Assembly (NCBI GenBank): GCA_964355275.1
Contig: CAYHCB010000004.1
Coordinates: 22,615-86,614 of the forward strand
Reading direction: 5' to 3'
Length of the DNA: 64,000 nucleotides
Source: an uncultured Gammaproteobacteria bacterium
GTDB taxonomy: Bacteria; Patescibacteriota; Patescibacteriia; Patescibacteriales; UBA12465
Part shown: in pieces, positions 3,606 through 48,207 of the stretch
How positions within the stretch are numbered: position 1 is the stretch's first letter
How the letters are laid out: each line of letters begins with the position of its first letter
The notes under the pieces: generated by a model
The model's input: only the letters and a program-made list of their open reading frames with translations
What the model was told of the DNA's origin: nothing
The model's database searches: none
Program-made: the position numbers and the translations under genes

Positions 3606-4226
3606 TTATTCTAAAACTTGGATTCTGGCTGTTTTTATACCAAACTTCATGGCACTTGGTCTATCTTTCATCCAGACATCAACGCGGTTAGGATGTTTTT
3701 TGTTCATTCTATCGCGAACTACAAAAACACGATCACCAAATAAGTCAGGAATTTTTACTTTAGTACCAAACTTTAAAAAGTTGGCAGCAATAGTATCTTC
3801 TTGCCCGTGTTTGCAAACATTAAAACCATTAGCTGTAATACAGGGGGAGTCATCGGTCTGCCCAACTTCGGAATTATAAGCGGTCATTACATGGACGCTA
3901 GTACTTTTTACCTTTTGTTCTTCTTTTTCTGGGGCGGTAGACTCTGATTCAATCGGCTGCGATTTAACAGTCTTTATTACAGGAGTTGGGGTCACCTCTA
4001 TAGTATCGGCAATTTTTTGAGCATTTTTGTCCATGTCCGTACTTTTACTCATTTCCCCTAAACTAATTTGCTGCTCATCTTGAGCGGCCACAGTTTCCGC
4101 GGCTAATGCGGGTGTGAAGAATAGTAAAAATTGAAAAATACAGGCAATTAACAATAATAAAACAAGACTTTGCTTTCTACTGAGAGGTACAATCTCCTCT
4201 CCAAATTTTTGAAGACGTTTTTTCAT
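3606..4226 (-). CDS. Secreted/membrane-anchored 3D-domain (RlpA-like double-psi barrel) cell-wall protein
   Basis: 206 aa with an N-terminal TM/signal segment. The C-terminal block TAYNSEVGQTDDSPCITANG...VFVVRDRM is typical of 3D domains. Confidence 0.7.
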   Translation of the reverse strand: MKKRLQKFGEEIVPLSRKQSLVLLLLIACIFQFLLFFTPALAAETVAAQDEQQISLGEMSKSTDMDKNAQKIADTIEVTPTPVIKTVKSQPIESESTAPEKEEQKVKSTSVHVMTAYNSEVGQTDDSPCITANGFNVCKHGQEDTIAANFLKFGTKVKIPDLFGDRVFVVRDRMNKKHPNRVDVWMKDRPSAMKFGIKTARIQVLE

Positions 4227-5206: not shown

Positions 5207-5244
5207 AAAAAAAGGGCTATCAAAATGATAGTCCTTTTTCTTTT
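5207..5244. terminator. Rho-independent terminator (convergent genes)
   Basis: Stem GGGCTATCA / TGATAGTCC followed by a T-run. Confidence 0.7.
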
Positions 5245-5262
5245 ATTTATAGAATATTATTT

Positions 5263-5685
5263 TTATGGAGTGATTATTGCCCCCCCTGCGCCACCGCCAC
5301 CAGCAAATGGTAAATAGGTAAAGACTGACCAAGTTATAGCATAGGCGGCAATTACAATTATTAAACCGATAATGGAATTAGTTAGAGACTCTTTAGCTTT
5401 TTTTATAGAATCCTCATTCCCCTGAGAAGTCATCCATTTAAATCCGGCCATTATAGTTAAAGCTAGAAAAACAATACCCAAAAAACCAAGGACAGATTTA
5501 ATCAGCATCCCAATAATTGTTGCTAAATTACTATTACTGGCTAATCCAGAGCCAGCCATTAAGGCGGTGTCCTGGCTGTCTAATCCAGCGGTATCTATAG
5601 AAGATGCAGCAAAAAGGCCAGTTACAAAGAGTAACTGAAATATAAACAGAAAAATAGAAAATCCTAAAATTTTTAATTTACTCAT
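5263..5685 (-). CDS. VirB2/TrbC-like small pilin-type membrane protein, paralog 1
   Basis: 140 aa with a signal peptide, a variable segment, TM1, the loop KWMTSQGNEDSIKKAKES, TM2 and a Gly-rich tail. Its start overlaps the stop of paralog 2 (ATGA). Confidence 0.7.
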   Translation of the reverse strand: MSKLKILGFSIFLFIFQLLFVTGLFAASSIDTAGLDSQDTALMAGSGLASNSNLATIIGMLIKSVLGFLGIVFLALTIMAGFKWMTSQGNEDSIKKAKESLTNSIIGLIIVIAAYAITWSVFTYLPFAGGGGAGGAIITP

Positions 5686-6092
5686 ATTGTTTTTATAAAA
5701 ACTGTTTTAATGAAGGTCCAAATAGCATAAGAAGAAATAACTACAATTAAACCAATAGTTGCTCTTGTTACCGAATCTTTTGCCTTTGTGACTTGATCCT
5801 CGTTACCTTGAGCGGTCATCCACTTGTAGCCAGCAATAATAACAATAAAGATAAATATTACACCAAGGATGCTTAGAGCGGTATTTATAACTATACCAAG
5901 AATTGAAGCCAAAGATGTGTTAGTAGCTTCATCTTTATACGGACCACTAACGGCAGCGGCTTTATTTAACCTTTCTAATGGGGAGGCGCCTTCTGTTAAG
6001 ATGGTTGTTGAGGCGGCAAACACTAAGCCAGGAACAATTAAAATTAAAGTTAGAAAAAAAACATTGAGCCAAGATTTTAATTTTTTTACCAT
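5682..6092 (-). CDS. VirB2/TrbC-like small pilin-type membrane protein, paralog 2
   Basis: 136 aa with the same architecture; loop KWMTAQGNEDQVTKAKDS. Confidence 0.7.
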   Translation of the reverse strand: MVKKLKSWLNVFFLTLILIVPGLVFAASTTILTEGASPLERLNKAAAVSGPYKDEATNTSLASILGIVINTALSILGVIFIFIVIIAGYKWMTAQGNEDQVTKAKDSVTRATIGLIVVISSYAIWTFIKTVFIKTI

Positions 6093-6100
6093 AAATGATT

Positions 6101-6487
6101 TTATGTAAATATTCTTAATAAAAAAGTAGTTAAAGCATAACCTCCGATTACAAACAATAAACCGATTAAAGCGCTGGTTAAATTATCTTTTGCTTTGGTA
6201 ACTTTAGCTTCATTACCTTGAGCGGTCATCCAAACAAAACCACTATAAAAAATTAAAGCCATTACAATTATTCCTAATAGAGAAAAAAGAGCGGTTAAAA
6301 TTAAACCAATATAATACTCAGGGTCTTGTGGTGCGGGATAGTTTGCTTTTTCTGAAAAAGTGCCAAGAACACCGTCTTGAGAAAAACCATCTTTTAAGCC
6401 GACGGCTAATATTGGTTGGGCAATAAAAAAACAACTTAAAAAAAATAATGGAAAAAAATATTTAGTTAAATTTAATTTTTTTAACAT
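6101..6487 (-). CDS. VirB2/TrbC-like small pilin-type membrane protein, paralog 3
   Basis: 128 aa with the same architecture; loop VWMTAQGNEAKVTKAKDN. Confidence 0.7.
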   Translation of the reverse strand: MLKKLNLTKYFFPLFFLSCFFIAQPILAVGLKDGFSQDGVLGTFSEKANYPAPQDPEYYIGLILTALFSLLGIIVMALIFYSGFVWMTAQGNEAKVTKAKDNLTSALIGLLFVIGGYALTTFLLRIFT

Positions 6488-6508
6488 TTAAATTTGAAAG
6501 AGTAATTT

Positions 6509-6907
6509 TTATTGTATTACTGGCGGAACGTTTGTTTTATAAAAAATATTCATTATAAAAAAGGTTATCCCATAGGCCGCTATTACGATAATTAAACCGA
6601 CAGTGGCTCTAATTAAGGTTTCCTTGGCCTTAGTTACTTGGGCAGCATCTCCTTGAGCCGTCATCCATTGTATACCGGCATAAATTGTTAATATAAAAAA
6701 AATAATACCTAAAAAAGAAAAAAGAAGAATTAAAACTGTGCCAACATGTGCCTCGGGTTCCAGGCTATTACTTAAGCCAGTTTTCTCCGCCATTTTCTGT
6801 AAACCACTACCTTCATTAAAAGTATAAGAAGCCGCCGCGTTAACAGAGAAAAAAGAAATCATTATAAATATTATACTAAGTAGCGGTAAAATTAAGTATT
6901 TTCTCAT
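6509..6907 (-). CDS. VirB2/TrbC-like small pilin-type membrane protein, paralog 4
   Basis: 132 aa with the same architecture; loop QWMTAQGDAAQVTKAKET. Confidence 0.7.
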   Translation of the reverse strand: MRKYLILPLLSIIFIMISFFSVNAAASYTFNEGSGLQKMAEKTGLSNSLEPEAHVGTVLILLFSFLGIIFFILTIYAGIQWMTAQGDAAQVTKAKETLIRATVGLIIVIAAYGITFFIMNIFYKTNVPPVIQ

Positions 6908-6915
6908 AGAGCAAG

Positions 6916-7302
6916 CTATTTAACTAGTTGGTTACCAACAAACGATGTTATCGAGTAAGCGGCGGTGACAATTATTAAACCAATAAGAGCATTAATTAAT
7001 AATTCTTTAGCTTTATCAACTTGAGCGGAGTTCCCTTGAGCGGTCATCCACATCAAACCAGCATAAATGGTTAGTATTAAAAATATTATGCCAACAAATG
7101 ACAGAATTAAGCCAACTATACCGCCGACTCTATCAAGAATTGTATCTTTAGCGTTCATACCCGTTTGACCACTAAAAGCAGGAATTTTTTTAGCAGTACT
7201 ATTTAAACCATCAATAGCGCTCGTATCGCCGGCCGCAAAAACAGGAGTTGTTAGACTGATAGATAAACTAAAAATTACTAAGAAATATTTTATTAAATTC
7301 AT
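6916..7302 (-). CDS. VirB2/TrbC-like small pilin-type membrane protein, paralog 5
   Basis: The track ORF extends to 7359. The internal ATG at 7302 (MNLIKYFLVIF...) gives a normal signal peptide like the paralogs. Loop MWMTAQGNSAQVDKAKEL. Confidence 0.65.
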   Translation of the reverse strand: MNLIKYFLVIFSLSISLTTPVFAAGDTSAIDGLNSTAKKIPAFSGQTGMNAKDTILDRVGGIVGLILSFVGIIFLILTIYAGLMWMTAQGNSAQVDKAKELLINALIGLIIVTAAYSITSFVGNQLVK

Positions 7303-7401
7303 ATATTTTTTCACTGCCCTAAAGCTAATTAAATTTAGATTCAAGGCGGTGCCCCCCATAAAATATGAGGGGCCATTTTTCTAAAATCGATTTTCGAAAA
7401 A

Positions 7402-7803
7402 TTAGTTGTTTGTACCAGCTCCACCAGTGGAAACAGTAACTGCGGTTTTGAGAACGTAATTAGCGATACCCCAAGCAGAAAGTATAATAATTATACCAAC
7501 TACACCGGCAACCATTAATTTTTTTGCTTCTCCAACTTTTTCTTCGTTACCCATAGCGGTCATCCATTTGAAACCACCGACTAGAACGATAACAACAGCG
7601 ATTAAGCCTAAGAAAAGCATAGCGGTGTTGATTAAACTAGTTGCAGTGTTCAAAGGGGATGTATTGCCTAATTTAACGGTATTTTGTACTTCGGTTGTTC
7701 CTAAATCCTCAATTGTAGGATTTACGGCCAAAGACATGGCTGGAATAACAAAAATAGATAATACGAAAACTAAAGATAATAAATTCTTAGCGATTTTTTT
7801 CAT
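7402..7803 (-). CDS. VirB2/TrbC-like small pilin-type membrane protein, paralog 6 (first gene of the array)
   Basis: 133 aa; loop KWMTAMGNEEKVGEAKKL. A strong SD (GGAAGGTGGTGA) lies upstream. Confidence 0.7.
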   Translation of the reverse strand: MKKIAKNLLSLVFVLSIFVIPAMSLAVNPTIEDLGTTEVQNTVKLGNTSPLNTATSLINTAMLFLGLIAVVIVLVGGFKWMTAMGNEEKVGEAKKLMVAGVVGIIIILSAWGIANYVLKTAVTVSTGGAGTNN

Positions 7804-7850: not shown

Positions 7851-7879
7851 ATTTTAGCATATTGGAAGTAACAAGACAA
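7851..7879 (-). promoter_or_regulatory. Candidate promoter of the pilin-like array
   Basis: On the minus strand: TTGTCT, a 17-nt spacer, then TAAAAT, about 45 nt upstream of the paralog 6 start. Confidence 0.4.
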
Positions 7880-7910: not shown

Positions 7911-8255
7911 CTAGATGTCAAGACTATGTTTTAAGATGACTGTGTTTTTATTTTTTAGCTTTATTATTATTAAATCTAGTCTGGATTTATTATAATTAAA
8001 AGAGTTAAGAGAACAATAAGCTTTTAGTGCTAGACGCAATCTGGCCACTTGTTTAACCTTTAAAACTGTAAAAGCTAGCTCGATATTATTTTTTCTAGTT
8101 TTAACTTCAATACCAATTATTATTTTTTTATGGGCAATTATATCTAACTCGCTGTGGTGAAAGCGCCAGTTTGTTTCTAAAATAGTATAACCTTTATTTT
8201 TTAAATACTCTTTCGCGATATTTTCGCCCCAATTTCCAATTATTTTTTTGTTCAT
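7911..8255 (-). CDS. YraN-family (UPF0102) endonuclease-like protein
   Basis: GENIAKEYLKNKGY...ELDIIA...IEVKTR is the YraN pattern. The start is set at the ATG at 8255, because the track start at 8270 lies inside the upstream terminator hairpin. Confidence 0.7.
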   Translation of the reverse strand: MNKKIIGNWGENIAKEYLKNKGYTILETNWRFHHSELDIIAHKKIIIGIEVKTRKNNIELAFTVLKVKQVARLRLALKAYCSLNSFNYNKSRLDLIIIKLKNKNTVILKHSLDI

Positions 8256-8286
8256 ATAAAAACCCCTCACAAAGGAGGGGTTTTTG
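8256..8286 (-). terminator. Rho-independent terminator
   Basis: Stem ACCCCTC / GAGGGGT followed by a T-run on the minus strand. Confidence 0.6.
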
Positions 8287-8310
8287 TGCTCTTTAAACTT
8301 ATTTTATAAT

Positions 8311-8694
8311 TTATGGTAGATATTTTTTTATTTGATCAATTTCTCCTTGTTGTTTTCTTCTGGCGGCAATTTTTTTTAAACCTTTAATAATATAAGTTGC
8401 CCACCAAATAGCTATTATTAACCAGATTAGATACCAAAAATGAGCGGAAAAAAATGGAACTATTTCATAATTAAAAAATAAAAGAAGTAGACCAATAAAA
8501 GCGTTAGAGATACAAAAATCGTAAATGTTTGAAAAAAAATGATGAAATAAACCTTTTTTCTTTTTAGCAATAAAAAATATAATAGAACCGATGATTAAGG
8601 TAATAATAATCCCAATAAAAATATTTCTAGCCGTGCCACTCATACTCCCCGGTCTTAGATTAAACCAAAAAGCAAGTGATAATAATGTTGACAT
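8311..8694 (-). CDS. Hypothetical membrane protein
   Basis: About 4 TM segments. The start is set at the ATG at 8694, because the longer track ORF overlaps the upstream gene by 56 nt. Confidence 0.5.
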   Translation of the reverse strand: MSTLLSLAFWFNLRPGSMSGTARNIFIGIIITLIIGSIIFFIAKKKKGLFHHFFSNIYDFCISNAFIGLLLLFFNYEIVPFFSAHFWYLIWLIIAIWWATYIIKGLKKIAARRKQQGEIDQIKKYLP

Positions 8695-8698
8695 AGTT

Positions 8699-9250
8699 TT
8701 ATAATTTTTTAAGAAGAAGGGCGTGATATTGTTCTCCAACCGCGAACTCTTCAATAATAGTTAAGCTTAATTTAGGTGCTGTTTGTTTTAAAACCTCAAT
8801 ATTTAGGCGATGTTCTGGTTTAGGCCCAAATAATAAAGCATCACTTTTGAAGTCGATTATTAATAATTTTCCACCATGCTTTATTAGTCTAACAGCTTCG
8901 CGTAAAATTTCAACCTTTTTTTCGGATTGATGTAAAACGTTTATAAGTAGGGCGGCATCAACACTCGAGGCTTCAATTTTTGTTCCTTTAAAAATTTCCA
9001 AATTACTCCAAACAGTCTTAATTTGTGGCAAATTATCAGTGTGGGCTCTTTTTTTTATTTCATCAAGAACAGCGGGGAGAATATCAACGGCATAAAGAGT
9101 TCCATTTTTACCTATTATTTTAGCTAAAGGAAAAACAAAATAGCCAAAGTGGCCACAACCAAGTTCGGCCACCACATTATTTTCTTTGACCGCTATTTTT
9201 TTTAAAGCAAGCTCTATATCAAAGAGTTTAACTCTTAGGTTTTTAGGCAT
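8699..9250 (-). CDS. Class I SAM-dependent methyltransferase
   Basis: 183 aa with motif I VAELGCGHFGY and a downstream acidic loop. Confidence 0.7.
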   Translation of the reverse strand: MPKNLRVKLFDIELALKKIAVKENNVVAELGCGHFGYFVFPLAKIIGKNGTLYAVDILPAVLDEIKKRAHTDNLPQIKTVWSNLEIFKGTKIEASSVDAALLINVLHQSEKKVEILREAVRLIKHGGKLLIIDFKSDALLFGPKPEHRLNIEVLKQTAPKLSLTIIEEFAVGEQYHALLLKKL

Positions 9251-9260
9251 ATTTTTTTTA

Positions 9261-9920
9261 TTATTCTACTAAAATTTGTCTTAAAATTAAAGCTTCGCCG
9301 CTATATTTCTTTTTAGCCTTTATTACAATATTATTTACGCCTTTTTTTAAATTTATAGAGGTTGAAAAATCTCCGCGACTAGTATTTAAGATAGTTTCAC
9401 CATTAATACTTAGCTCAGCCTCTGGTTCGGTTATACCTTTTATTTTAATAAAATTTTCGGATATTTTAATATTTTTACTGGGCTGATAAACCTCTAAAAA
9501 CGGGGGGAAAATAATTTTTTTAAAATAAAAAGCTAAATAAAGTAAACAGGCTAAAAAAACAGACGCTAGAATTAAATTTTTAATTAATTTAGGAAAAACC
9601 ATAAATTCCTTGCGTCTCACTATTTTTTGTGAAAAAGGATTAATGGTTTCGTTGGTTATTTCTAAATTATCTGCTATCCATTTCTTAGTTTCATTCGCTG
9701 GAAAACCAAGTAAGGCGGCGTAATCTTTTATATAGTTTTTACTATATAGTCCCGCTGGTAAACGATCAAAGCGTCCACCCTCAATAGCCAAAAGGTATTC
9801 TAAACGAATATTTAGACGACGGGCAGCCACCTCAAGATTTATCTGTCTAAGCTCTCTAGCGGCTTTTAATTTAGCGCCTAAACCGTTATCGTTTAAATTT
9901 TTTTTAGTAAATTCGGTCAT
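9261..9920 (-). CDS. RodZ-like HTH-domain membrane protein
   Basis: It has an N-terminal Xre-type HTH (LKAARELRQINLEVAARRLNIRLEYLLAIE), a single TM and an extracellular beta-rich C-terminus. The ATG at 9920 overlaps the upstream stop (TAATG); an alternative start is at 9938. Confidence 0.6.
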   Translation of the reverse strand: MTEFTKKNLNDNGLGAKLKAARELRQINLEVAARRLNIRLEYLLAIEGGRFDRLPAGLYSKNYIKDYAALLGFPANETKKWIADNLEITNETINPFSQKIVRRKEFMVFPKLIKNLILASVFLACLLYLAFYFKKIIFPPFLEVYQPSKNIKISENFIKIKGITEPEAELSINGETILNTSRGDFSTSINLKKGVNNIVIKAKKKYSGEALILRQILVE

Positions 9921-10444
9921 TATTTTGGTTGGCAACATTTATTTGTGGCATCTCCGGGGCAAAGTCCTGTCTTACAGTTTTTTCCACTAGAGACATTCAT
10001 ACAACTATAACCCTGATCACTAAATTGAGCGCAGCCACTTATTTTAATTTCTCCGGTAACAGCATTCCAGCCTACACCGATGCCGCCGAAAAAAAGATTC
10101 ATAATTAATACGCTAGCAAAAGTGATAATCAGGCCAACGATAGCCGCCTTTATAATATCCATTCCTTTTTTTACCTTTTCGGAGCTACCAGCAGAAAGTA
10201 AAAAAGTTATACCACCATAAATAAAAGCTAGTAAAGAGAGGGTCCCCACTAAACTTAAAATAATTTTCATAATGTAGACGGCGTAATTTCCGACGTCGTT
10301 TAGGGTGTAATTACCGCTGGCATAATTACCGCTAGTATCTACAATACTGCTTATAGCTAAGCAGTCGTAAGCGTTGAACAATAAAACAAAACTGACAATT
10401 ACTAGACTTATTTTTAAAGTTTTTAAAATTTTTAGTTTTTTCAT
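9920..10444 (-). CDS. Divergent pilin-like membrane protein with cysteine-rich C-terminal extension (paralog 7)
   Basis: 174 aa with a signal peptide, two TM helices flanking the loop LLSAGSSEKVKKGMD, then a roughly 55-aa tail containing 7 Cys. Confidence 0.6.
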   Translation of the reverse strand: MKKLKILKTLKISLVIVSFVLLFNAYDCLAISSIVDTSGNYASGNYTLNDVGNYAVYIMKIILSLVGTLSLLAFIYGGITFLLSAGSSEKVKKGMDIIKAAIVGLIITFASVLIMNLFFGGIGVGWNAVTGEIKISGCAQFSDQGYSCMNVSSGKNCKTGLCPGDATNKCCQPK

Positions 10445-10458
10445 AATATATTTTTAGA

Positions 10459-11826
10459 CTAATAAACGGTCTGTTGTACTTTCATGGCGCCATCAGTTAA
10501 TACTTCCTGTAATTTATCGGTTACGGTTGGGACTAAATTTATCATTTCAGCAATCGCACTTTCGGCGTCATTTATGCTTTTTCCTTTATACCAACTTTTA
10601 GCACTGAGAATTTGTTCAGCAAAAACTCCTAAATCTTCGTTATCTTTCTGAGAATTTATTAATGTTTTTAAAGCGGTTGGTTTTTTGGTTTTTTCTAAAT
10701 ATATTTTGGCGTTTTCTTCTTTGGTTAAGAATTGAATAAAGTCCCAGGCTTCATTTGGGTTCTTACTTTTTTTAGATACTGATTCAACCCAATAATTAGC
10801 AAAATTTATTTCCATAGAATTACCTTCAATTTGTGGTAATTTTGCTATTCCAAAATTTAGTTTTGGCGCTTGAGCGCGGATTTGTTCTAAATTAAAGGAG
10901 TAACCAAACACCATGGCGAGGTTTCCACTAGTAAAAGCTTCCATGGAATTTGGTAAGTCATTGTTCCAGCAATAAACCTCTTTGGCTGGGTTTGCAAAAT
11001 CAGTATAAAAGCGTAAAGCCTCAAGTCCTGGATTGTAATTATTTGACATATTAGGTGGGGTGGCATGAAAAGTTACCTGATTACCGTTATTCATAATTGC
11101 TCCATTTTGCATCATTAAAACTGATAGAATATCGCTAAAACGACTAATATTTTTAGCAGTTCCTAGCGCGATTCCAGACTGAATTAAACCTTTTTTAGGA
11201 TCTTGTTTGCTCAACTTTTTAACGCTTTGTTGAAATTCTTTATTCCAGTAACGAGGGGCACTAGTTATTCCAGCACTATTTAATAAATCTCGGTTGTAAA
11301 AAAGGGCCAAGGTATCAACCGACAAAGGTAATCCGTATATTTGGCCATCTTCTAAAATAACATCGCTAGAAACCACATCGGCGAAATTATTTTTTAAATC
11401 CCTTATAGATAAACTTTTAACAGTTTGCAGTTGAGGGACCACTTCCTTCTTTATGGTACCAGTTTCAACCATATAAGCCATGGTAATTTCGGCCGGCATC
11501 GGGGTTATTTTTGTTTGGTATTTTTTTATCCAAGTATTATGGATAGCAAAAATATCTGGCCCTCTATCTTCGGCCCAGGCGTTTAACAATTCATTTTCAT
11601 ATTCTTCATAACGTAATTTACGGAACTCAATGGTTATATTTGGATGTATTGCTTGATATTTAGAAATAATAGTATCAAAAGCCTCAGAATCATCAAATGC
11701 TTGCCAGAAGGTTAAAACTATTGGCTTAGTGGCTTCTTGCGTTTGGTTATTAACCGTTTTACAACCAAAACCAGAACTTAGAATAAAAATAAGTAAAAGT
11801 GAAAAAATTATTATTTTTTTTGTCAT
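10459..11826 (-). CDS. ABC transporter extracellular solute-binding protein (sugar-type), putative lipoprotein
   Basis: 455 aa with an N-terminal signal ending GFGC. The length and composition resemble family 1 solute-binding proteins. No permease or ATPase gene is adjacent. Confidence 0.65.
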   Translation of the reverse strand: MTKKIIIFSLLLIFILSSGFGCKTVNNQTQEATKPIVLTFWQAFDDSEAFDTIISKYQAIHPNITIEFRKLRYEEYENELLNAWAEDRGPDIFAIHNTWIKKYQTKITPMPAEITMAYMVETGTIKKEVVPQLQTVKSLSIRDLKNNFADVVSSDVILEDGQIYGLPLSVDTLALFYNRDLLNSAGITSAPRYWNKEFQQSVKKLSKQDPKKGLIQSGIALGTAKNISRFSDILSVLMMQNGAIMNNGNQVTFHATPPNMSNNYNPGLEALRFYTDFANPAKEVYCWNNDLPNSMEAFTSGNLAMVFGYSFNLEQIRAQAPKLNFGIAKLPQIEGNSMEINFANYWVESVSKKSKNPNEAWDFIQFLTKEENAKIYLEKTKKPTALKTLINSQKDNEDLGVFAEQILSAKSWYKGKSINDAESAIAEMINLVPTVTDKLQEVLTDGAMKVQQTVY

Positions 11827-35209: not shown

Positions 35210-38200
35210 TTAAATAACCCGAAAAATTTCGTCTAAACTTGTTTCTCCTGCTAAAGCTTTTAGAATCCCATCGGCAACGATAGTAACGGTGCCATTTTTT
35301 ATGGCCGCTTGTTCTATTTCGTAATCTGTAATATTAGGATTTTGTATTAATTTTTGTATTTCAGGAGTTACGGTAATAGTTTCGTATAATCCAACTCTAC
35401 CTTTATATCCAATGTTGCCACACTTATCACAACCAGTGCTTGTAAAGAAATTTAAATCGCTGGGAATAACTAATAGTGGGTTATTAATTTGGCTTAAAAT
35501 ATTTTTTACTTTATTTATTGTTTCTTCGTCTGTGGTTGCCGGTTTTTTACAATAAGGACAGAGACGACGAACTAATCTTTGGCCGATTGAGAATTCTAAA
35601 GAATTAGCCAGGGCTTGTCTTTCGACTCCTAATCCAGAAAAACGAGAAATTGCCCCCGCGGCACTATTAGCATGAATAGTAGATAACACCAAGTGACCGG
35701 TAGAAGCCGCCTCAATCGCAATTTTAGCTGTTTCATTATCACGGATTTCACCAATCATCATAATATTTGGATTTTGGCGGAGTAAAGAACGCATTGCTGA
35801 AGCAAAAGTGTAGCCGTGCTCGCTGTCTATTTGAGTTTGCATGACTCCCGCTAATTGATATTCAATAGGATCTTCAACAGTAATTATTTTAACATCAGGT
35901 TTATTTATTTTATTTAAAATACTATATAAGGTTGTAGTTTTTCCTGATCCAGTTGGACCGGTAGTGATAATAATTCCTTTAGTTTTTTTAATAGCCTCTT
36001 GAAGAGATTTTAAGGCAACTGAAGTAATACCTAGCGTTTCCATATTTAAATTAGCCGCGGAAGTGCTAAGCAAACGAATAACGATTGTCTCTCCATAGCC
36101 ACCAGAAATAATAGACAAACGACAGTCCATTTTTTTATCAACTAAACGTAAACTAAAACGACCATCTAAGGTTGCTATTTTTATATTAGTGGCAAAACCG
36201 GCTAGTATTTTCATTTCCGAGAGAACTGGTAGATAAGCGGTTGTTGGTAGATTTAAGACATCATGCAACACACCATCAATACGGAAACGAACTTTAACAT
36301 CAGATTCACTTGGTTCAATGTGAATATCTCCAGCATTACTTTGAATAGCTAGAGACATGATTAAGGTAATAATTTCTTTAGACGGGATATTATTTACTAG
36401 CTCAGACATTTGTTTAACATCTTGGCTTATTGTAGCGGCCCTGGTTAGATCTTCATTACTAATATTTAAGCCACGACCGATAGTTTGGGAAACCACAATA
36501 TCATAAAGTTCATTGATATAATCGAAGTTACCAATTACGCGATAAACCTCTTCTAGTGACGTGATACCGTCAAAACACTTAAGAACGCCATCTTGTAACA
36601 TAGTAATCATGCCATTTTCAATGGCCTGCTGTAAAATTTTAAACGAGGGAGCCTTATCAATCGTTAGTTGTTTTAGATTATCAACCATCGTAAAAATTTC
36701 ATAAATACCAAGACGACCCTTGTAGCTTGTATAATTACAACTTGGGCAACCGGGACCAGCCTGATAAAGAGTTGGTAAATTATGAGGTATATTCACTCCT
36801 GATTTAGGAGAAACAACGGCTAATATTTTATCAACTTGAGCCTTTTCTTCGATATTTAAAATATGTGTAGTGCGGCAATTAGTGCATAAACGACGCACTA
36901 AACGTTGTCCAATAACAGCGTTAATAGAAGGGACTAAGAAATAAGGTTTAACCCCAAGATCTATAAGGCGAGGAATAACGCCAGCGGCGTCATTAGTGTG
37001 TAAAGTCGATAGTACCAAGTGTCCGGTTATTGAAGCTTGTACAGCTATTTCGGCAGTTTCAAGATCACGAATTTCACCGATCATTAAAACATTAGGATCT
37101 TGACGTAAAATTGAACGTAAGCCATCAGAAAAAGAGTAACCTTTTTTTGTGTCAACTTGACTTTGATTAATTCCGGTAAGCTGATATTCAATTGGATCCT
37201 CTAAAGTGATAATTTTGGTCCCTGGTTTATTTAATTTATTTAAAATAGCATATAGCGAGGTAGTTTTTCCTGATCCAGTTGGCCCAGTTGTTAAAATTAA
37301 ACCATTTGGTTTAGCTATTTCTCTTTTTAAAATTTCAAAAACTTCATTTCTAATTCCTAATTTTTCAAATTCTAAAGAAGCGGCTGATGAGTCAAGCAGA
37401 CGCATTACTACACTTTCACCATAGGCGGTGGGTAAAAAAGAGGAACGAACATCAAGCTTTCTATCAGACAAAGCAATGCTATAACGACCATCTTGAGGTT
37501 TATCGGTTATATTAATTTTTACCTTAGCTAATATTTTTATACGAGTGGCAATCTTTTGCCACTTACCGCCAGTTATAACGGCTGCCTCCTGAAGTACGCC
37601 ATCAATTCGTAAACGGATGACAGCTCCTTTTTCTTCAGCTTCAATATGGATATCACTAGCGCCAACTTTAATCGCCGTAGCCAGCATTAAAGTAACCACA
37701 TCAGAAATACTTACCTCATTAATTTTTTGATTAAGTAAGTGATAATCAGTTAACTCCTCTTTAAATTGGTTTAATTTTTCTTCGCTTATTTCTACTAAAC
37801 CTTTATATTGCTTAACTTTAGGTAGCGTCTTATAAAGATCAAAAGCATGATTAAGACTCTCTTCGGAAATTAAAAAAACTGATCCTTTGGCAAAATATCT
37901 GTCAGCTAATTCGTCGGTTAAATCTATAACAGTTTGGTTTATGACGGTGGCTCCAAATTGAATCCCGGTGCCATCATAATAAAAACAAACCAATTTTAAA
38001 TCATTGGCTGTTTCTTCGTCAATTAAACCTAAGGCTTCAGGGCTGATAGGAAAGCCAACTAAACTAATATAAGGCAAGTTTTGCGCTCTTGCCTTAGATT
38101 CAGTTGATCTTTCAATTTCTTTAGCCTTTATTTCGGCTTGCTTTTTAGAAAATTTATCTAAAATTGAGCCCTCCTCAGGTAAATCATCATGAATTAAATT

Positions 38201-38224
38201 ATCAATAGAGGCTAAATCACTCAT
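35210..38224 (-). CDS. Tandem-duplicated PilB/GspE-type secretion ATPase (two complete ATPase modules in one polypeptide)
   Basis: 1004 aa. An N-terminal GSPII/MshEN-like domain is followed by two N2+CTD modules. Each module has Walker A GPTGSGKTT (aa 314 and 755), E-DPIEYQL, MIGEIRD, TGHLVLST-H and a 4-Cys cluster. Confidence 0.85.
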   Translation of the reverse strand: MSDLASIDNLIHDDLPEEGSILDKFSKKQAEIKAKEIERSTESKARAQNLPYISLVGFPISPEALGLIDEETANDLKLVCFYYDGTGIQFGATVINQTVIDLTDELADRYFAKGSVFLISEESLNHAFDLYKTLPKVKQYKGLVEISEEKLNQFKEELTDYHLLNQKINEVSISDVVTLMLATAIKVGASDIHIEAEEKGAVIRLRIDGVLQEAAVITGGKWQKIATRIKILAKVKINITDKPQDGRYSIALSDRKLDVRSSFLPTAYGESVVMRLLDSSAASLEFEKLGIRNEVFEILKREIAKPNGLILTTGPTGSGKTTSLYAILNKLNKPGTKIITLEDPIEYQLTGINQSQVDTKKGYSFSDGLRSILRQDPNVLMIGEIRDLETAEIAVQASITGHLVLSTLHTNDAAGVIPRLIDLGVKPYFLVPSINAVIGQRLVRRLCTNCRTTHILNIEEKAQVDKILAVVSPKSGVNIPHNLPTLYQAGPGCPSCNYTSYKGRLGIYEIFTMVDNLKQLTIDKAPSFKILQQAIENGMITMLQDGVLKCFDGITSLEEVYRVIGNFDYINELYDIVVSQTIGRGLNISNEDLTRAATISQDVKQMSELVNNIPSKEIITLIMSLAIQSNAGDIHIEPSESDVKVRFRIDGVLHDVLNLPTTAYLPVLSEMKILAGFATNIKIATLDGRFSLRLVDKKMDCRLSIISGGYGETIVIRLLSTSAANLNMETLGITSVALKSLQEAIKKTKGIIITTGPTGSGKTTTLYSILNKINKPDVKIITVEDPIEYQLAGVMQTQIDSEHGYTFASAMRSLLRQNPNIMMIGEIRDNETAKIAIEAASTGHLVLSTIHANSAAGAISRFSGLGVERQALANSLEFSIGQRLVRRLCPYCKKPATTDEETINKVKNILSQINNPLLVIPSDLNFFTSTGCDKCGNIGYKGRVGLYETITVTPEIQKLIQNPNITDYEIEQAAIKNGTVTIVADGILKALAGETSLDEIFRVI
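35213..37711 (-). repeat. Intragenic duplication: ATPase module 1 (36530-37711) and module 2 (35213-36385)
   Basis: The protein-level repeat has a period of about 441 aa and is colinear across all conserved boxes. Confidence 0.85.
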
Positions 38225-48034: not shown

Positions 48035-48134
48035 ATTAGAGCTCACCACAATTTAATCAATATTTATAATGGTATCAGCTTTATCTCTAAAAGTAAATAA
48101 TAAAAAATGCCCGATTTTGTCAGTCATTTTTTTG

Positions 48135-48207
48135 TGCGCCCAGATGGAATCGAACCATCGACCCCCGCTTTATAAGAGCGGTGCTCTAACCGCTGAGCCA
48201 TGGGCGC
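48135..48207 (-). tRNA. tRNA-Ile (anticodon TAT)
   Basis: Reverse complement: acceptor GCGCCCA/TGGGCGC, anticodon stem CCGCT/AGCGG with loop CTTATAA, T-loop TTCGATT, A73. Confidence 0.8.

What the first reader, a model, noticed from the sequence alone, without database searches (positions are those of the whole stretch)
5263..7803. Array of six tandem VirB2/TrbC-like pilin paralogs with conserved core and hypervariable exposed segments
Six consecutive minus-strand genes of 128-140 aa share one architecture. Each has a Sec signal peptide ending around AxA, a 30-45-aa non-conserved segment, TM1, a conserved loop W-M-T-A-Q-G-N-E-x-x-V-x-K-A-K, TM2 and a short variable tail. The loop is also conserved at DNA level: CCTTGAGCGGTCATCCA recurs near 5806, 6216, 6651 and 7034. 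This two-helix hairpin with a signal peptide is the fold of conjugative/T4SS pilins. However, no VirB4, VirB6, VirD4 or relaxase gene lies in the window. A conserved core combined with diversified surface segments across six adjacent copies suggests either a heteropolymeric surface filament or a repertoire for surface variation, in a lineage thought to live attached to host cells. The assembly machinery is not evident locally.
Basis: partly seen in the sequence, partly recalled or inferred. Interest (0 to 1): 0.6.

Follow-up and report, generated by a model that had tools for sequence, protein, structure and literature searches.

The report
Conserved VirB2-like pilin operon in Patescibacteria
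The six small tandem genes are real and belong to the known family of type IV secretion pilin-like proteins that ultrasmall Patescibacteria often carry in arrays, so this is another case of a published pattern, not a new system.

Summary
Six same-strand genes at 5263-7803 encode proteins with a signal peptide, a variable segment, TM1, a WMTAQGNE..KAK loop, TM2 and a tail. All six pass the Pfam PF18895 (T4SS_pilin) gathering score. A seventh, divergent member lies at 9920-10444. The window is chromosomal DNA of a Falkowbacteria-like Patescibacterium. It carries no VirB4, VirB6 or VirD4 gene. Arrays of 2-11 VirB2-like pilins in Patescibacteria are already published (Quinonero-Coronel 2025; Wang 2023, where the array is essential), so this is a new member of a known kind.

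Three points were not found in the literature I searched:
- The seven copies are positional orthologues across 11 genomes: 76 of 77 best cross-genome hits sit at the same array position. The array is therefore old and stable, which favours non-redundant co-expressed subunits over a variation repertoire.
- None of 80 related arrays has a VirB4-like ATPase within 10 kb.
- In 46 of 80 loci an orphan SBP_bac_1 gene sits directly upstream of a pilin gene (in the window it encodes a probable lipoprotein).

The shared 17-mer follows from the protein motif and codon preference, not from gene conversion. Whether a pilus forms, and whether this genome encodes a T4SS, could not be tested.

The parts
7402..7803 (-). 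pil1, first gene of the six-gene run (133 aa). It is the best Pfam match, the only copy with a strong Shine-Dalgarno sequence (GGAAGGTGG), and a candidate major subunit.
   Evidence: PF18895 41.3 bits. Upstream sequence. AF2 hairpin H50-82/H87-126.
6916..7359 (-). pil2 (147 aa as the longest ORF; the likely true start is the ATG at 7302, giving 128 aa)
   Evidence: PF18895 30.6 bits. Orthologues are 130-131 aa. Internal Met precedes a normal signal peptide.
6509..6907 (-). pil3 (132 aa)
   Evidence: PF18895 27.1 bits. Positional orthologues.
6101..6487 (-). pil4 (128 aa)
   Evidence: PF18895 28.8 bits. Positional orthologues.
5682..6092 (-). pil5 (136 aa); its stop overlaps the pil6 start (ATGA)
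   Evidence: PF18895 33.3 bits and TrbC E 0.008. Gap of -4 nt.
5263..5685 (-). pil6 (140 aa), last gene, with a Gly-rich C-terminal tail
   Evidence: PF18895 33.5 bits. NCBIfam NF045849 40.5 bits against a cut-off of 40.
9920..10444 (-). pil0, a seventh and divergent family member (174 aa). Its loop motif is FLLSAGSSEKVKK. Its Cys-rich C-terminal extension is absent from the 10 orthologues examined.
   Evidence: PF18895 27.3 bits. HMM of the six copies gives E 1.3e-10. Orthologues at the same position in 10 genomes.
10459..11826 (-). Orphan SBP_bac_1 solute-binding protein (455 aa, lipobox-like ...SSGFGC), 14 nt upstream of pil0. It is the conserved partner gene of these arrays.
   Evidence: Pfam SBP_bac_1 E 1.6e-29. 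NCBIfam carbohydrate-SBP hits. Directly upstream of a pilin gene on the same strand in 46 of 80 loci.
7911..9938 (-). Four same-strand genes between pil0 and pil1: RodZ-like HTH_25 protein, methyltransferase, small membrane protein and UPF0102. They are syntenic in the closest relatives and probably co-transcribed passengers.
   Evidence: Gaps of -19 to 55 nt.
7851..7879 (-). Promoter-like site (TTGTCT-17-TAAAAT with TG) in the 107-nt gap before pil1. This is a consensus match only.
   Evidence: The number of promoter-like sites in the region is not above chance.
5209..5239 (.). Palindromic hairpin flanked by A and T runs, between the convergent pil6 and the 252-aa gene. Likely a bidirectional terminator that ends the operon.
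3606..4226 (-). Secreted 206-aa protein conserved just downstream of the arrays in about 27 of 80 loci. Its C-terminal domain weakly resembles the C-terminal region of Bacillus EntA/EntB wall-binding proteins. It is a possible peptidoglycan-active helper; the association is tentative.

Best explanation
This is a chromosomal, origin-proximal operon of a Falkowbacteria-like Patescibacterium. It encodes seven distinct VirB2-like pilin-family proteins (Pfam PF18895): one next to a solute-binding protein gene, and six in a tight tandem run.

Shown:
- Family membership of all seven proteins.
- A signal peptide followed by a two-helix hairpin.
- A conserved helical core and loop, with faster-evolving N-terminal segment and tail.
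- Tight same-strand packing, ended by a terminator-like hairpin.
- One-to-one positional orthology of every copy across 11 genomes.

Inferred:
- The proteins are exported by Sec and cut by signal peptidase I. They sit in the membrane with both ends outside and the WMTAQGNE..KAK loop inside.
- They are drawn from that pool by the Patescibacteria-type T4SS related to the monoderm MPF-FATA class (VirB4, VirB6, VirB3-like). That system would be encoded elsewhere in the genome.
- They would assemble into a pilus-like or wall-spanning polymer, as proposed for Southlakia epibionticum, where such an array is essential.
- Because each paralogue has been kept separately for a long time and all appear co-transcribed, the copies most likely have non-redundant roles, such as major and minor subunits or a mixed polymer. 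They are unlikely to be alternative variants. pil1 is the candidate major subunit.
For: - Family: PF18895 is above its gathering score for all seven proteins. NF045849, the Mycoplasma ICE pilin-like conjugal transfer family, scores 26.9-40.5 bits for the six tandem copies, reaching its cut-off of 40 only for pil6, and 19 bits for pil0. TrbC/VirB2 hits are sub-threshold in the window, but reach 28.9 bits against a gathering score of 27.9 in a related fusion protein. hhalign to verified Agrobacterium VirB2 aligns 54 columns at 33% identity and lines up the W-M at the end of helix 1.
- Topology and model.
- Region-wise identity: core 0.54-0.58 against exposed 0.18-0.26 in orthologues.
- Operon structure: gaps of -4 to 21 nt within pil2-pil6 and a terminator-like hairpin at 5209-5239.
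- Positional orthology: 76 of 77 best cross-genome hits are at the same position, and all 77 outscore the best within-genome paralogue. Divergence is similar to that of neighbouring envelope genes.
- Literature: arrays of 2-11 VirB2-like pilins occur in 383 Patescibacteria assemblies. The pilin genes in the T4SS cluster of S. epibionticum are essential. VirB4 is present in 2,417 of 3,035 Patescibacteria genomes, including the three Falkowbacteria entries I saw in Table S1.
- Position: the array lies about 15-20 kb from rnpA-yidD-yidC (the closest relative also shows dnaA-dnaN there), the origin-proximal position reported for T4SS genes.
Against: - No VirB4, VirB6 or VirD4 gene lies in the 64-kb window or in the flanks examined (about 10 kb beyond each end).
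- No VirB4-like ATPase lies within 10 kb of any of 80 related arrays.
- I could not show that this genome has a T4SS.
- The fold search against PDB does not discriminate: all E values exceed 2 and hairpins match many things. A profile search of PDB sequences finds no pilin.
- The hhalign probability is only 26%.
- The most consistent neighbour is an orphan solute-binding protein gene, not a T4SS gene.
- In the papers I read, no pilus made of PF18895 proteins has been observed; the 2025 FEMS review still treats a T4SS pilus as a possibility.
Confidence: 0.6

Rival explanations
1. The PF18895 hairpins are a T4SS-independent envelope module. They would be small membrane-embedded proteins, or anchors, that work with the co-encoded solute-binding protein and other envelope functions. 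Possible roles are to hold or organise surface proteins, or to capture host-derived sugars. No VirB4-driven pilus would be built.
For: - An SBP_bac_1 gene lies directly upstream of a pilin gene on the same strand in 46 of 80 loci, with a median gap of about 3 nt.
- No VirB4-like ATPase lies near any of the 80 arrays.
- The neighbours are envelope and housekeeping genes: GalU-like, MGDG-synthase-like, PBP1A, Lgt, LspA and RodZ-like.
- In 12 loci the same domain forms the N-terminal membrane part of proteins of about 500-3,351 aa. The two scanned with Pfam, both in L083, carry Ig-like domains. This looks like an anchor role.
Against: - The family is homologous to Mycoplasma ICE pilin-like conjugal transfer proteins and, weakly, to TrbC/VirB2.
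- In Saccharibacteria the equivalent array sits inside the T4SS cluster and is essential together with it.
- In 1,135 assemblies a VirB2-like gene lies near virB4.
- No ABC permease or ATPase accompanies the binding protein, so a transport role is not evident.
Confidence: 0.25
2. The array is a repertoire for surface or antigenic variation, or for host-range switching. The copies would be interchangeable, expressed alternately or diversified quickly, as proposed for the Bartonella and Anaplasma VirB2 paralogues.
For: The exposed N-terminal segment and tail are the least conserved parts. The published analysis of Patescibacteria arrays raises this analogy. Copy number differs between more distant lineages, with tandem runs of 4 to 11.
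Against: - Positional one-to-one orthology across 11 genomes (76 of 77), with every cross-genome best hit stronger than any within-genome paralogue.
- No long identical DNA tracts: the 97-nt repeat is only 61-70% identical. There are no notable inverted repeats, and no recombinase was found.
- Tight operon packing with overlapping stop and start codons implies co-expression.
- The locus is 100% identical at DNA level in five metagenome contigs.
- Orthologue divergence is no faster than that of Lgt or the methyltransferase.
Confidence: 0.1
3. They are type IV pilus (T4P) pilins, serviced by the PilB-like ATPase at 35210-38224.
For: The window carries a 1,004-aa protein with two T2SSE ATPase domains. 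T4P are known in Patescibacteria.
Against: There is no class III (prepilin peptidase) leader motif. The proteins have an ordinary Sec-type signal and two transmembrane helices, not one N-terminal helix plus a globular head. No T4P pilin family is hit, and PF18895 is.
Confidence: 0.02

Closest known systems
VirB2-like pilin arrays of Patescibacteria (Quinonero-Coronel et al. 2025, Microb Genom 11:001409), including the essential pilin series in the T4SS cluster of Ca. Southlakia epibionticum ML1 (Wang et al. 2023, Cell 186:4803) and the 'Sec secreted array' of TM7x
   Same: The same Pfam family (PF18895) was used to define them. [quoted passage not shown] Southlakia also has six divergent copies. 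Both sit on the chromosome in Patescibacteria, and T4SS genes are often near the origin there.
   Different: In Southlakia the array lies inside the T4SS cluster. Here, and in all 80 related loci sampled, no VirB4-like gene lies within 10 kb. Arrays were reported as most abundant in Microgenomatia and Saccharimonadia, whereas this one is in a Falkowbacteria-like (ABY1) lineage. Positional orthology and the coupling to a solute-binding protein gene are absent from the sections of those papers I read.
TrbC/VirB2 conjugative and T-pilus pilins (Pfam PF04956; Agrobacterium VirB2, PDB 8cue/8exh)
   Same: They share a signal peptide, two hydrophobic helices joined by a short polar or charged loop, a W-M at the end of helix 1, and Gly-rich helices and tail. 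hhalign aligns 54 columns at 33% identity.
   Different: The window proteins score only 15-17 bits against PF04956, whose gathering score is 27.9. The loop is about 8 residues longer. No adjacent virB operon is present. The host is a monoderm. Cyclisation and lipid co-assembly are unknown.
Mbov_0395 / MMCAP2_0565 pilin-like conjugal transfer proteins of Mycoplasma ICEs (NCBIfam NF045849)
   Same: They are small two-helix proteins of a wall-less monoderm T4SS. The six tandem window copies match at E 1.6e-10 to 2.9e-6, and pil6 reaches the curated cut-off.
   Different: Five of the six tandem copies score below the equivalog cut-off, and pil0 scores only 19 bits. The Mycoplasma genes are named as ICE conjugal-transfer genes, whereas these form a chromosomal multi-copy array with no mobile-element genes nearby.
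VirB2 paralogue clusters of Bartonella and Anaplasma phagocytophilum T4SSs
   Same: Several tandem, divergent VirB2-family genes in a host-associated bacterium. They are cited as the analogy.
   Different: Those clusters are discussed as antigenic or host-interaction variants in diderm pathogens. Here the copies are stable positional orthologues with no sign of recombination.

Membership tests
Pfam PF18895 T4SS_pilin | Whole-protein HMM score at or above the gathering score (26.6 bits) | tested here: met
   The six copies score 33.5, 33.3, 28.8, 27.1, 30.6 and 41.3 bits, and pil0 scores 27.3 bits. Precomputed PF18895 hits are also recorded for the same proteins.
Pfam PF04956 TrbC/VirB2 pilin | HMM score at or above the gathering score (27.9 bits) | tested here: not met
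   Only two copies hit, at 16.8 and 15.0 bits (E 0.008 and 0.028). A related giant fusion protein in L083 does reach 28.9 bits.
VirB2-type T4SS pilin (functional class) | Cleavable signal peptide followed by two hydrophobic helices joined by a short polar loop | tested here: met
   Hydropathy segments. AF2 helices 2-26, 50-82 and 87-126, with pLDDT 78-91 in the hairpin.
VirB2-type T4SS pilin (functional class) | Detectable similarity to an experimentally solved VirB2/TraA pilin | tested here: inconclusive
   hhalign to Agrobacterium VirB2 gives E 7e-4, probability 26% and 33% identity over 54 columns. The PDB profile search finds no pilin. Foldseek E values all exceed 2, and an archaeal conjugation pilus appears only at rank 48.
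VirB2-type T4SS pilin (functional class) | Encoded with, or at least alongside in the same genome, a VirB4 ATPase and VirB6-like channel | tested here: not met
   Local linkage is not met. None was found in the window, the flanks examined, or within 10 kb of 80 related arrays. Presence elsewhere in the genome cannot be tested with these tools. The base rate is 2,417 of 3,035 Patescibacteria genomes.
VirB2-type T4SS pilin (functional class) | Polymerises into an extracellular pilus | not testable with these tools
   This needs microscopy or biochemistry. The 2025 FEMS review still describes a pilus in Patescibacteria as a possibility.
Patescibacteria VirB2 array (as defined by Quinonero-Coronel et al. 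2025) | [quoted passage not shown] | tested here: met
   Six uninterrupted tandem genes with 26-39% identity to the first copy.
NCBIfam NF045849 Mbov_0395 pilin-like conjugal transfer protein | Score at or above the curated cut-off (40 bits) | tested here: inconclusive
   pil6 scores 40.5 bits. The other five tandem copies score 26.9-37.4 bits, below the cut-off, and pil0 scores 19 bits.
Type IV pilus (T4P) pilin | Class III leader with a prepilin-peptidase site, and a single N-terminal hydrophobic helix | tested here: not met
   The sequences show ordinary Sec-type signals and two transmembrane helices, and no T4P pilin family is hit.

The most novel reading that the evidence does not exclude
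The conserved solute-binding protein gene plus a fixed set of seven distinct PF18895 subunits, always unlinked from VirB4 in this lineage, would encode a defined heteromeric envelope-spanning filament or conduit. The sugar-binding protein would be its working partner, used to capture or import host-derived carbohydrate. This would be a nutrient-acquisition organelle derived from a conjugative pilin, possibly assembled without a canonical T4SS.
Probability: 0.12. Interest if true: 0.75.

Novelty: new member of a known kind. Interest (0 to 1): 0.33.

Why it matters
Patescibacteria are a large part of uncultured bacterial diversity. Their T4SS and pilin array are essential in the one species tested genetically, yet their function is unknown. 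This locus adds no new kind of system, but it narrows the options in three ways. First, the paralogues are old, individually conserved and co-transcribed. That argues for a fixed multi-subunit structure and against antigenic variation. Second, in this ABY1-type lineage the array has separated from the T4SS genes. Third, it is instead coupled to an orphan sugar-type binding protein gene. If that coupling is functional, it gives a concrete handle on the proposed role in taking molecules up from the host.

Tried and rejected
- I guessed that the conserved ORF of about 750 aa downstream of Magasanikbacteria-type arrays was VirB4, and that the 120- to 200-aa ORFs beside it were VirB3/VirB8-like. 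Pfam shows PNPase, ribosomal protein S15 and a NYN protein. The 378-aa, 289-aa and 985-aa ORFs are an MGDG-synthase-like glycosyltransferase, a GalU-like transferase and PBP1A.
- I screened all 98 unlabelled ORFs of at least 480 aa in the 80 loci. They fall into 37 clusters. Only five cluster representatives carry a plausibly placed Walker A motif. Two were scanned and are FtsK and a ComM/Mg-chelatase-like protein. The other three match window-type UvrA-like, double-T2SSE and Der-like proteins by length and motif position. None is VirB4.
- I asked whether gene conversion or a DNA-level element explains the shared 17-mer. It does not. W and M have single codons, and GCT and CAA are the preferred codons. 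ACC, which makes up 23% of Thr codons, is shared by 4 of 6 copies, a mild excess only. Flanking synonymous sites differ, and the 97-nt repeat is 61-70% identical.
- The Foldseek search of PDB and the profile search of PDB sequences were uninformative for a helical hairpin.
- Promoter-like sites in the region are not above chance: 26 against 29.9 expected.
- I tried to model the conserved 206-aa neighbour using orthologues from the fetched loci. PDB sequence searches for this protein found nothing useful.
- I tried to reach the origin side of the source contig through YidC. The exact protein was not the cluster representative, so I used the 85%-identical Falkowbacteria ELA424 copy. It shows dnaN-dnaA-rpmH-rnpA-yidD-yidC and no T4SS gene there.
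- I could not obtain a Patescibacteria VirB4 query that the tools would accept, so I did not search this organism's other contigs.
Full report

Yes. ORF listing gives six consecutive minus-strand genes between 5263 and 7803, of 140, 136, 128, 132, 147 and 133 aa. The fifth most likely starts at the internal ATG at 7302 (128 aa). That start precedes a normal signal peptide and matches the 130-131 aa orthologues.

A MAFFT alignment shows one shared architecture:
- a basic N-terminus, a hydrophobic signal and an AxA-like cleavage site;
- a poorly conserved polar stretch of about 25-35 aa;
- a long hydrophobic helix;
- the loop W-M-T-A/S-Q/M-G-N/D-x-x-x-V/I-x-K/E-A-K;
- a second hydrophobic helix and a short variable tail.

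It has one mismatch at 6651 and three mismatches at 5420 and 7550. That is six matches against 0.02 expected.

An HMM built from the six copies finds one further member in the window, at 9920-10444 (174 aa, E 1.3e-10).

**2. What the proteins are**

All six pass the gathering score of Pfam PF18895 'Type IV secretion system pilin' (27.1-41.3 bits against 26.6). The seventh scores 27.3 bits.

Other family evidence is weaker:
- NCBIfam NF045849, the Mycoplasma ICE 'Mbov_0395 pilin-like conjugal transfer protein', matches the six tandem copies at E 1.6e-10 to 2.9e-6. Only pil6 reaches the curated cut-off, at 40.5 against 40.
- Hits to the classical TrbC/VirB2 family PF04956 are sub-threshold in the window (15-17 bits). 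The same domain in a related giant protein does pass (28.9 against 27.9).
- I recalled the mature Agrobacterium VirB2 sequence and checked that it is identical to PDB 8cue/8exh. An hhalign comparison with my 59-sequence alignment gives 54 aligned columns at 33% identity, E 7e-4 and probability 26%. The W-M at the end of helix 1 is in register, and the loop here is about 8 residues longer.
- AlphaFold2 on that alignment gives a signal helix (2-26), a disordered segment (27-49) and a helical hairpin (50-82 and 87-126). pLDDT is 78-91 in the hairpin.
- Fold and sequence searches against solved structures do not discriminate for such a small hairpin.

Membership of PF18895 is therefore established. 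Membership of the wider VirB2 superfamily is likely but weakly supported. Pilus formation is untested.

**3. Genomic setting**

The window has 30-36% G+C and 11 tRNA genes. Its genes are housekeeping genes, including Lgt, PPDK, SMC, several aminoacyl-tRNA synthetases, TopA, Der, DprA, LspA, TsaD/E and ribosomal proteins. The nearest genome is Ca. Falkowbacteria ELA424, with PPDK 90% and SMC 80% identical. The published survey assigns Falkowbacteria to GTDB class ABY1.

No VirB4, VirB6, VirD4 or relaxase is present in the window. None lies in the roughly 10 kb examined beyond each end.

The array lies about 15-20 kb from rnpA-yidD-yidC, both in the source metagenome contig and in ELA424. ELA424 also shows dnaN, dnaA and rpmH there, so the array is close to the replication origin. 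Published work notes that position for Patescibacteria T4SS genes.

On the minus strand, gaps are short from a terminator-like hairpin after SMC (11942-11913) to a palindromic terminator-like hairpin at 5209-5239. The order is: SBP, pil0, RodZ-like, methyltransferase, small membrane protein, UPF0102, then 107 nt, pil1, 99 nt, and pil2 to pil6. Within pil2-pil6 the gaps are 8, 21, 8 and -4 nt. Only pil1 has a strong Shine-Dalgarno sequence.

**4. Relatives**

One scan of species-representative genomes returned 80 loci. Every informative record title names a Patescibacteria group (Falkowbacteria, Magasanikbacteria, Uhrbacteria, Komeilibacteria or Parcubacteria). Many other MAGs carry generic or apparently wrong titles, such as 'uncultured Gammaproteobacteria'.
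- 63 of the 80 loci have an uninterrupted run of at least four family members. The median run is six and the maximum is 11.
- About a dozen loci, ten of which I used for comparison, show the window's layout of one copy, about 4 kb of other genes, then six copies.
- Across those ten plus the window, 76 of 77 proteins have their best hit in another genome at the same array position. All 77 such hits outscore the best paralogue within the same genome.
- Orthologue identity falls from 56-75% in the nearest genome to 33-58% in the further ones. That is about the pace of Lgt or the neighbouring methyltransferase.
- By region, orthologues are 54-58% identical in the two helices and loop, but 26% in the N-terminal segment and 18% in the tail. 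Paralogues score 38-51%, 11% and 5% for the same regions.
- The locus is 100% identical at DNA level in five independently assembled metagenome contigs.
- DNA repeats between copies are only 61-70% identical over 97 nt. No notable inverted repeats are present.
- The shared 17-mer is explained by the single codons of W and M plus the preferred GCT and CAA codons.

The array is therefore ancient, ordered and under purifying selection. It is not a recently amplified or recombining repertoire.

**5. Linkage in relatives**

My first guess was that a conserved ORF of about 750 aa downstream of many arrays was VirB4. That was wrong: it is PNPase, and the other recurrent neighbours are envelope or housekeeping genes.

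I clustered all 98 unlabelled ORFs of at least 480 aa from the 80 loci and examined every cluster with a plausibly placed Walker A motif. The two I scanned are FtsK and a ComM-like protein. The other three resemble the window's UvrA-like, double-T2SSE and Der proteins by length and motif position. No related array has a VirB4-type ATPase within 10 kb.

The one consistently linked gene is an SBP_bac_1 solute-binding protein. It lies directly upstream of a pilin gene on the same strand in 46 of 80 loci, with a median gap of about 3 nt. In the window this is 10459-11826. It has a lipobox-like ...SSGFGC and is of carbohydrate-binding type by NCBIfam. No ABC permease or ATPase accompanies it.

A secreted 206-aa protein (3606-4226) follows the arrays in about 27 loci. 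It weakly resembles the C-terminal region of Bacillus EntA/EntB wall-binding proteins.

In 12 loci the pilin domain is the N-terminal part of proteins of about 500-3,351 aa. The two I scanned with Pfam, both in L083, carry Ig-like domains after the pilin domain.

**6. What is already known**

Quinonero-Coronel et al. (2025) searched 3,035 Patescibacteria genomes with PF04956 and PF18895.
- They found VirB2-like genes in 1,948 assemblies that also had VirB4.
- The pilin gene lay near virB4 in 1,135 of those.
- They found 441 arrays of 2-11 pilin genes in 383 assemblies, with a mean identity of 25%.
- They proposed an analogy with the Bartonella and Anaplasma VirB2 paralogues.

Wang et al. (2023) showed by Tn-seq that the predicted pilin genes in the T4SS cluster of Southlakia epibionticum are essential. 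[quoted passage not shown] The role of the T4SS is described as completely unknown.

I found no paper in the searchable library that mentions the solute-binding protein coupling.

**7. Most likely mechanism**

Shown: family membership, topology, operon packing and positional orthology.

Inferred:
- Sec export and signal peptidase I cleavage.
- Insertion in the membrane as hairpins, with both ends outside and the conserved charged loop inside.
- Extraction and polymerisation by a Patescibacteria-type T4SS encoded elsewhere. VirB4 is present in 80% of Patescibacteria genomes, including the Falkowbacteria entries I saw.
- The variable N-terminal segment and tail on the outer surface, and the conserved loop lining the lumen. 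This step rests on my knowledge of the F- and T-pilus structures.
- Non-redundant roles for the seven subunits, with pil1 as the candidate major subunit.

I give this 0.6.

The main rival, at 0.25, is a T4SS-independent envelope module working with the binding protein. It rests on the missing VirB4 linkage, the binding-protein coupling and the anchor-like fusions. The variation repertoire gets 0.1, and type IV pilus pilins are effectively excluded.

**8. Verdict**

The phenomenon is published, so this is a new member of a known kind. Interest is modest (0.33). It rests on the positional orthology, the consistent separation from VirB4 in this lineage and the solute-binding protein coupling. Each of these is cheap to test further on complete genomes and expression data.

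Noticed in passing
window 9920-10444 (-): A seventh, divergent PF18895 member (pil0), 14 nt after the solute-binding protein gene and overlapping the next gene by 19 nt. Its mature N-terminal motif S-I-V-D-T-S..Y-A-x-G-N-Y-x-L-N-D recurs, with variations, in most of its orthologues. Its Cys-rich C-terminal extension (8 Cys in the last 40 aa) is absent from all 10 orthologues examined.
   Followed up: partly
window 10459-11826 (-); 46 of loci L011-L090: An orphan SBP_bac_1 carbohydrate-type solute-binding protein gene lies directly upstream of a pilin gene on the same strand, with a median gap of about 3 nt. No ABC permease or ATPase is nearby. The window copy has a lipobox-like signal. I found no mention of this in the searchable literature.
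   Followed up: partly
window 3606-4226 (-): A secreted 206-aa protein is conserved just downstream of the arrays in about 27 of 80 loci. It has an invariant TAYNS..Q..PC.TA..C..EDT core and a weak match (E 1e-3) to the C-terminal region of Bacillus EntA/EntB wall-binding proteins. It may be a peptidoglycan-active helper.
   Followed up: partly
L083 9956-20011 (+), also L041, L054, L055, L060 and others: In 12 related loci the pilin domain is the N-terminal part of proteins of about 500-3,351 aa. In the 3,351-aa L083 protein it is followed by Big_5, Big_7 and TIG Ig-like domains. These genes sit in housekeeping contexts, next to HisRS, signal peptidase, S21 and YqeY.
   Followed up: partly
window 35210-38224 (-): A 1,004-aa protein has two T2SSE (PilB/PilT-type) ATPase domains in one chain. 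No recognisable type IV pilus genes were found next to it.
   Followed up: no
window 48134-48207 (-): ARAGORN predicts a tRNA-Ile with anticodon UAU. To my knowledge this is unusual, because most bacteria read AUA with a lysidine-modified CAU tRNA.
   Followed up: no
L006 18276-20801; L091 6178-10747: The array lies about 15-20 kb from the origin-proximal rnpA-yidD-yidC genes in both the source contig and the closest relative. The relative also shows dnaN, dnaA and rpmH there.
   Followed up: yes
loci L011, L013, L015, L019, L020 and others (record titles): Many species-representative MAGs that carry these arrays are titled 'uncultured Gammaproteobacteria', and a few Planctomycetota, Binatia or Vicinamibacterales. 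The pilin arrays and, where present, their syntenic neighbours are Patescibacteria-like, so these are probably mislabelled records.
   Followed up: no
L014 6286-7905 (-) and equivalents in 14 loci: A gene of about 530 aa with no Pfam or NCBIfam match is inserted on the opposite strand directly upstream of the six-gene run in many relatives. It is absent from the window.
   Followed up: no
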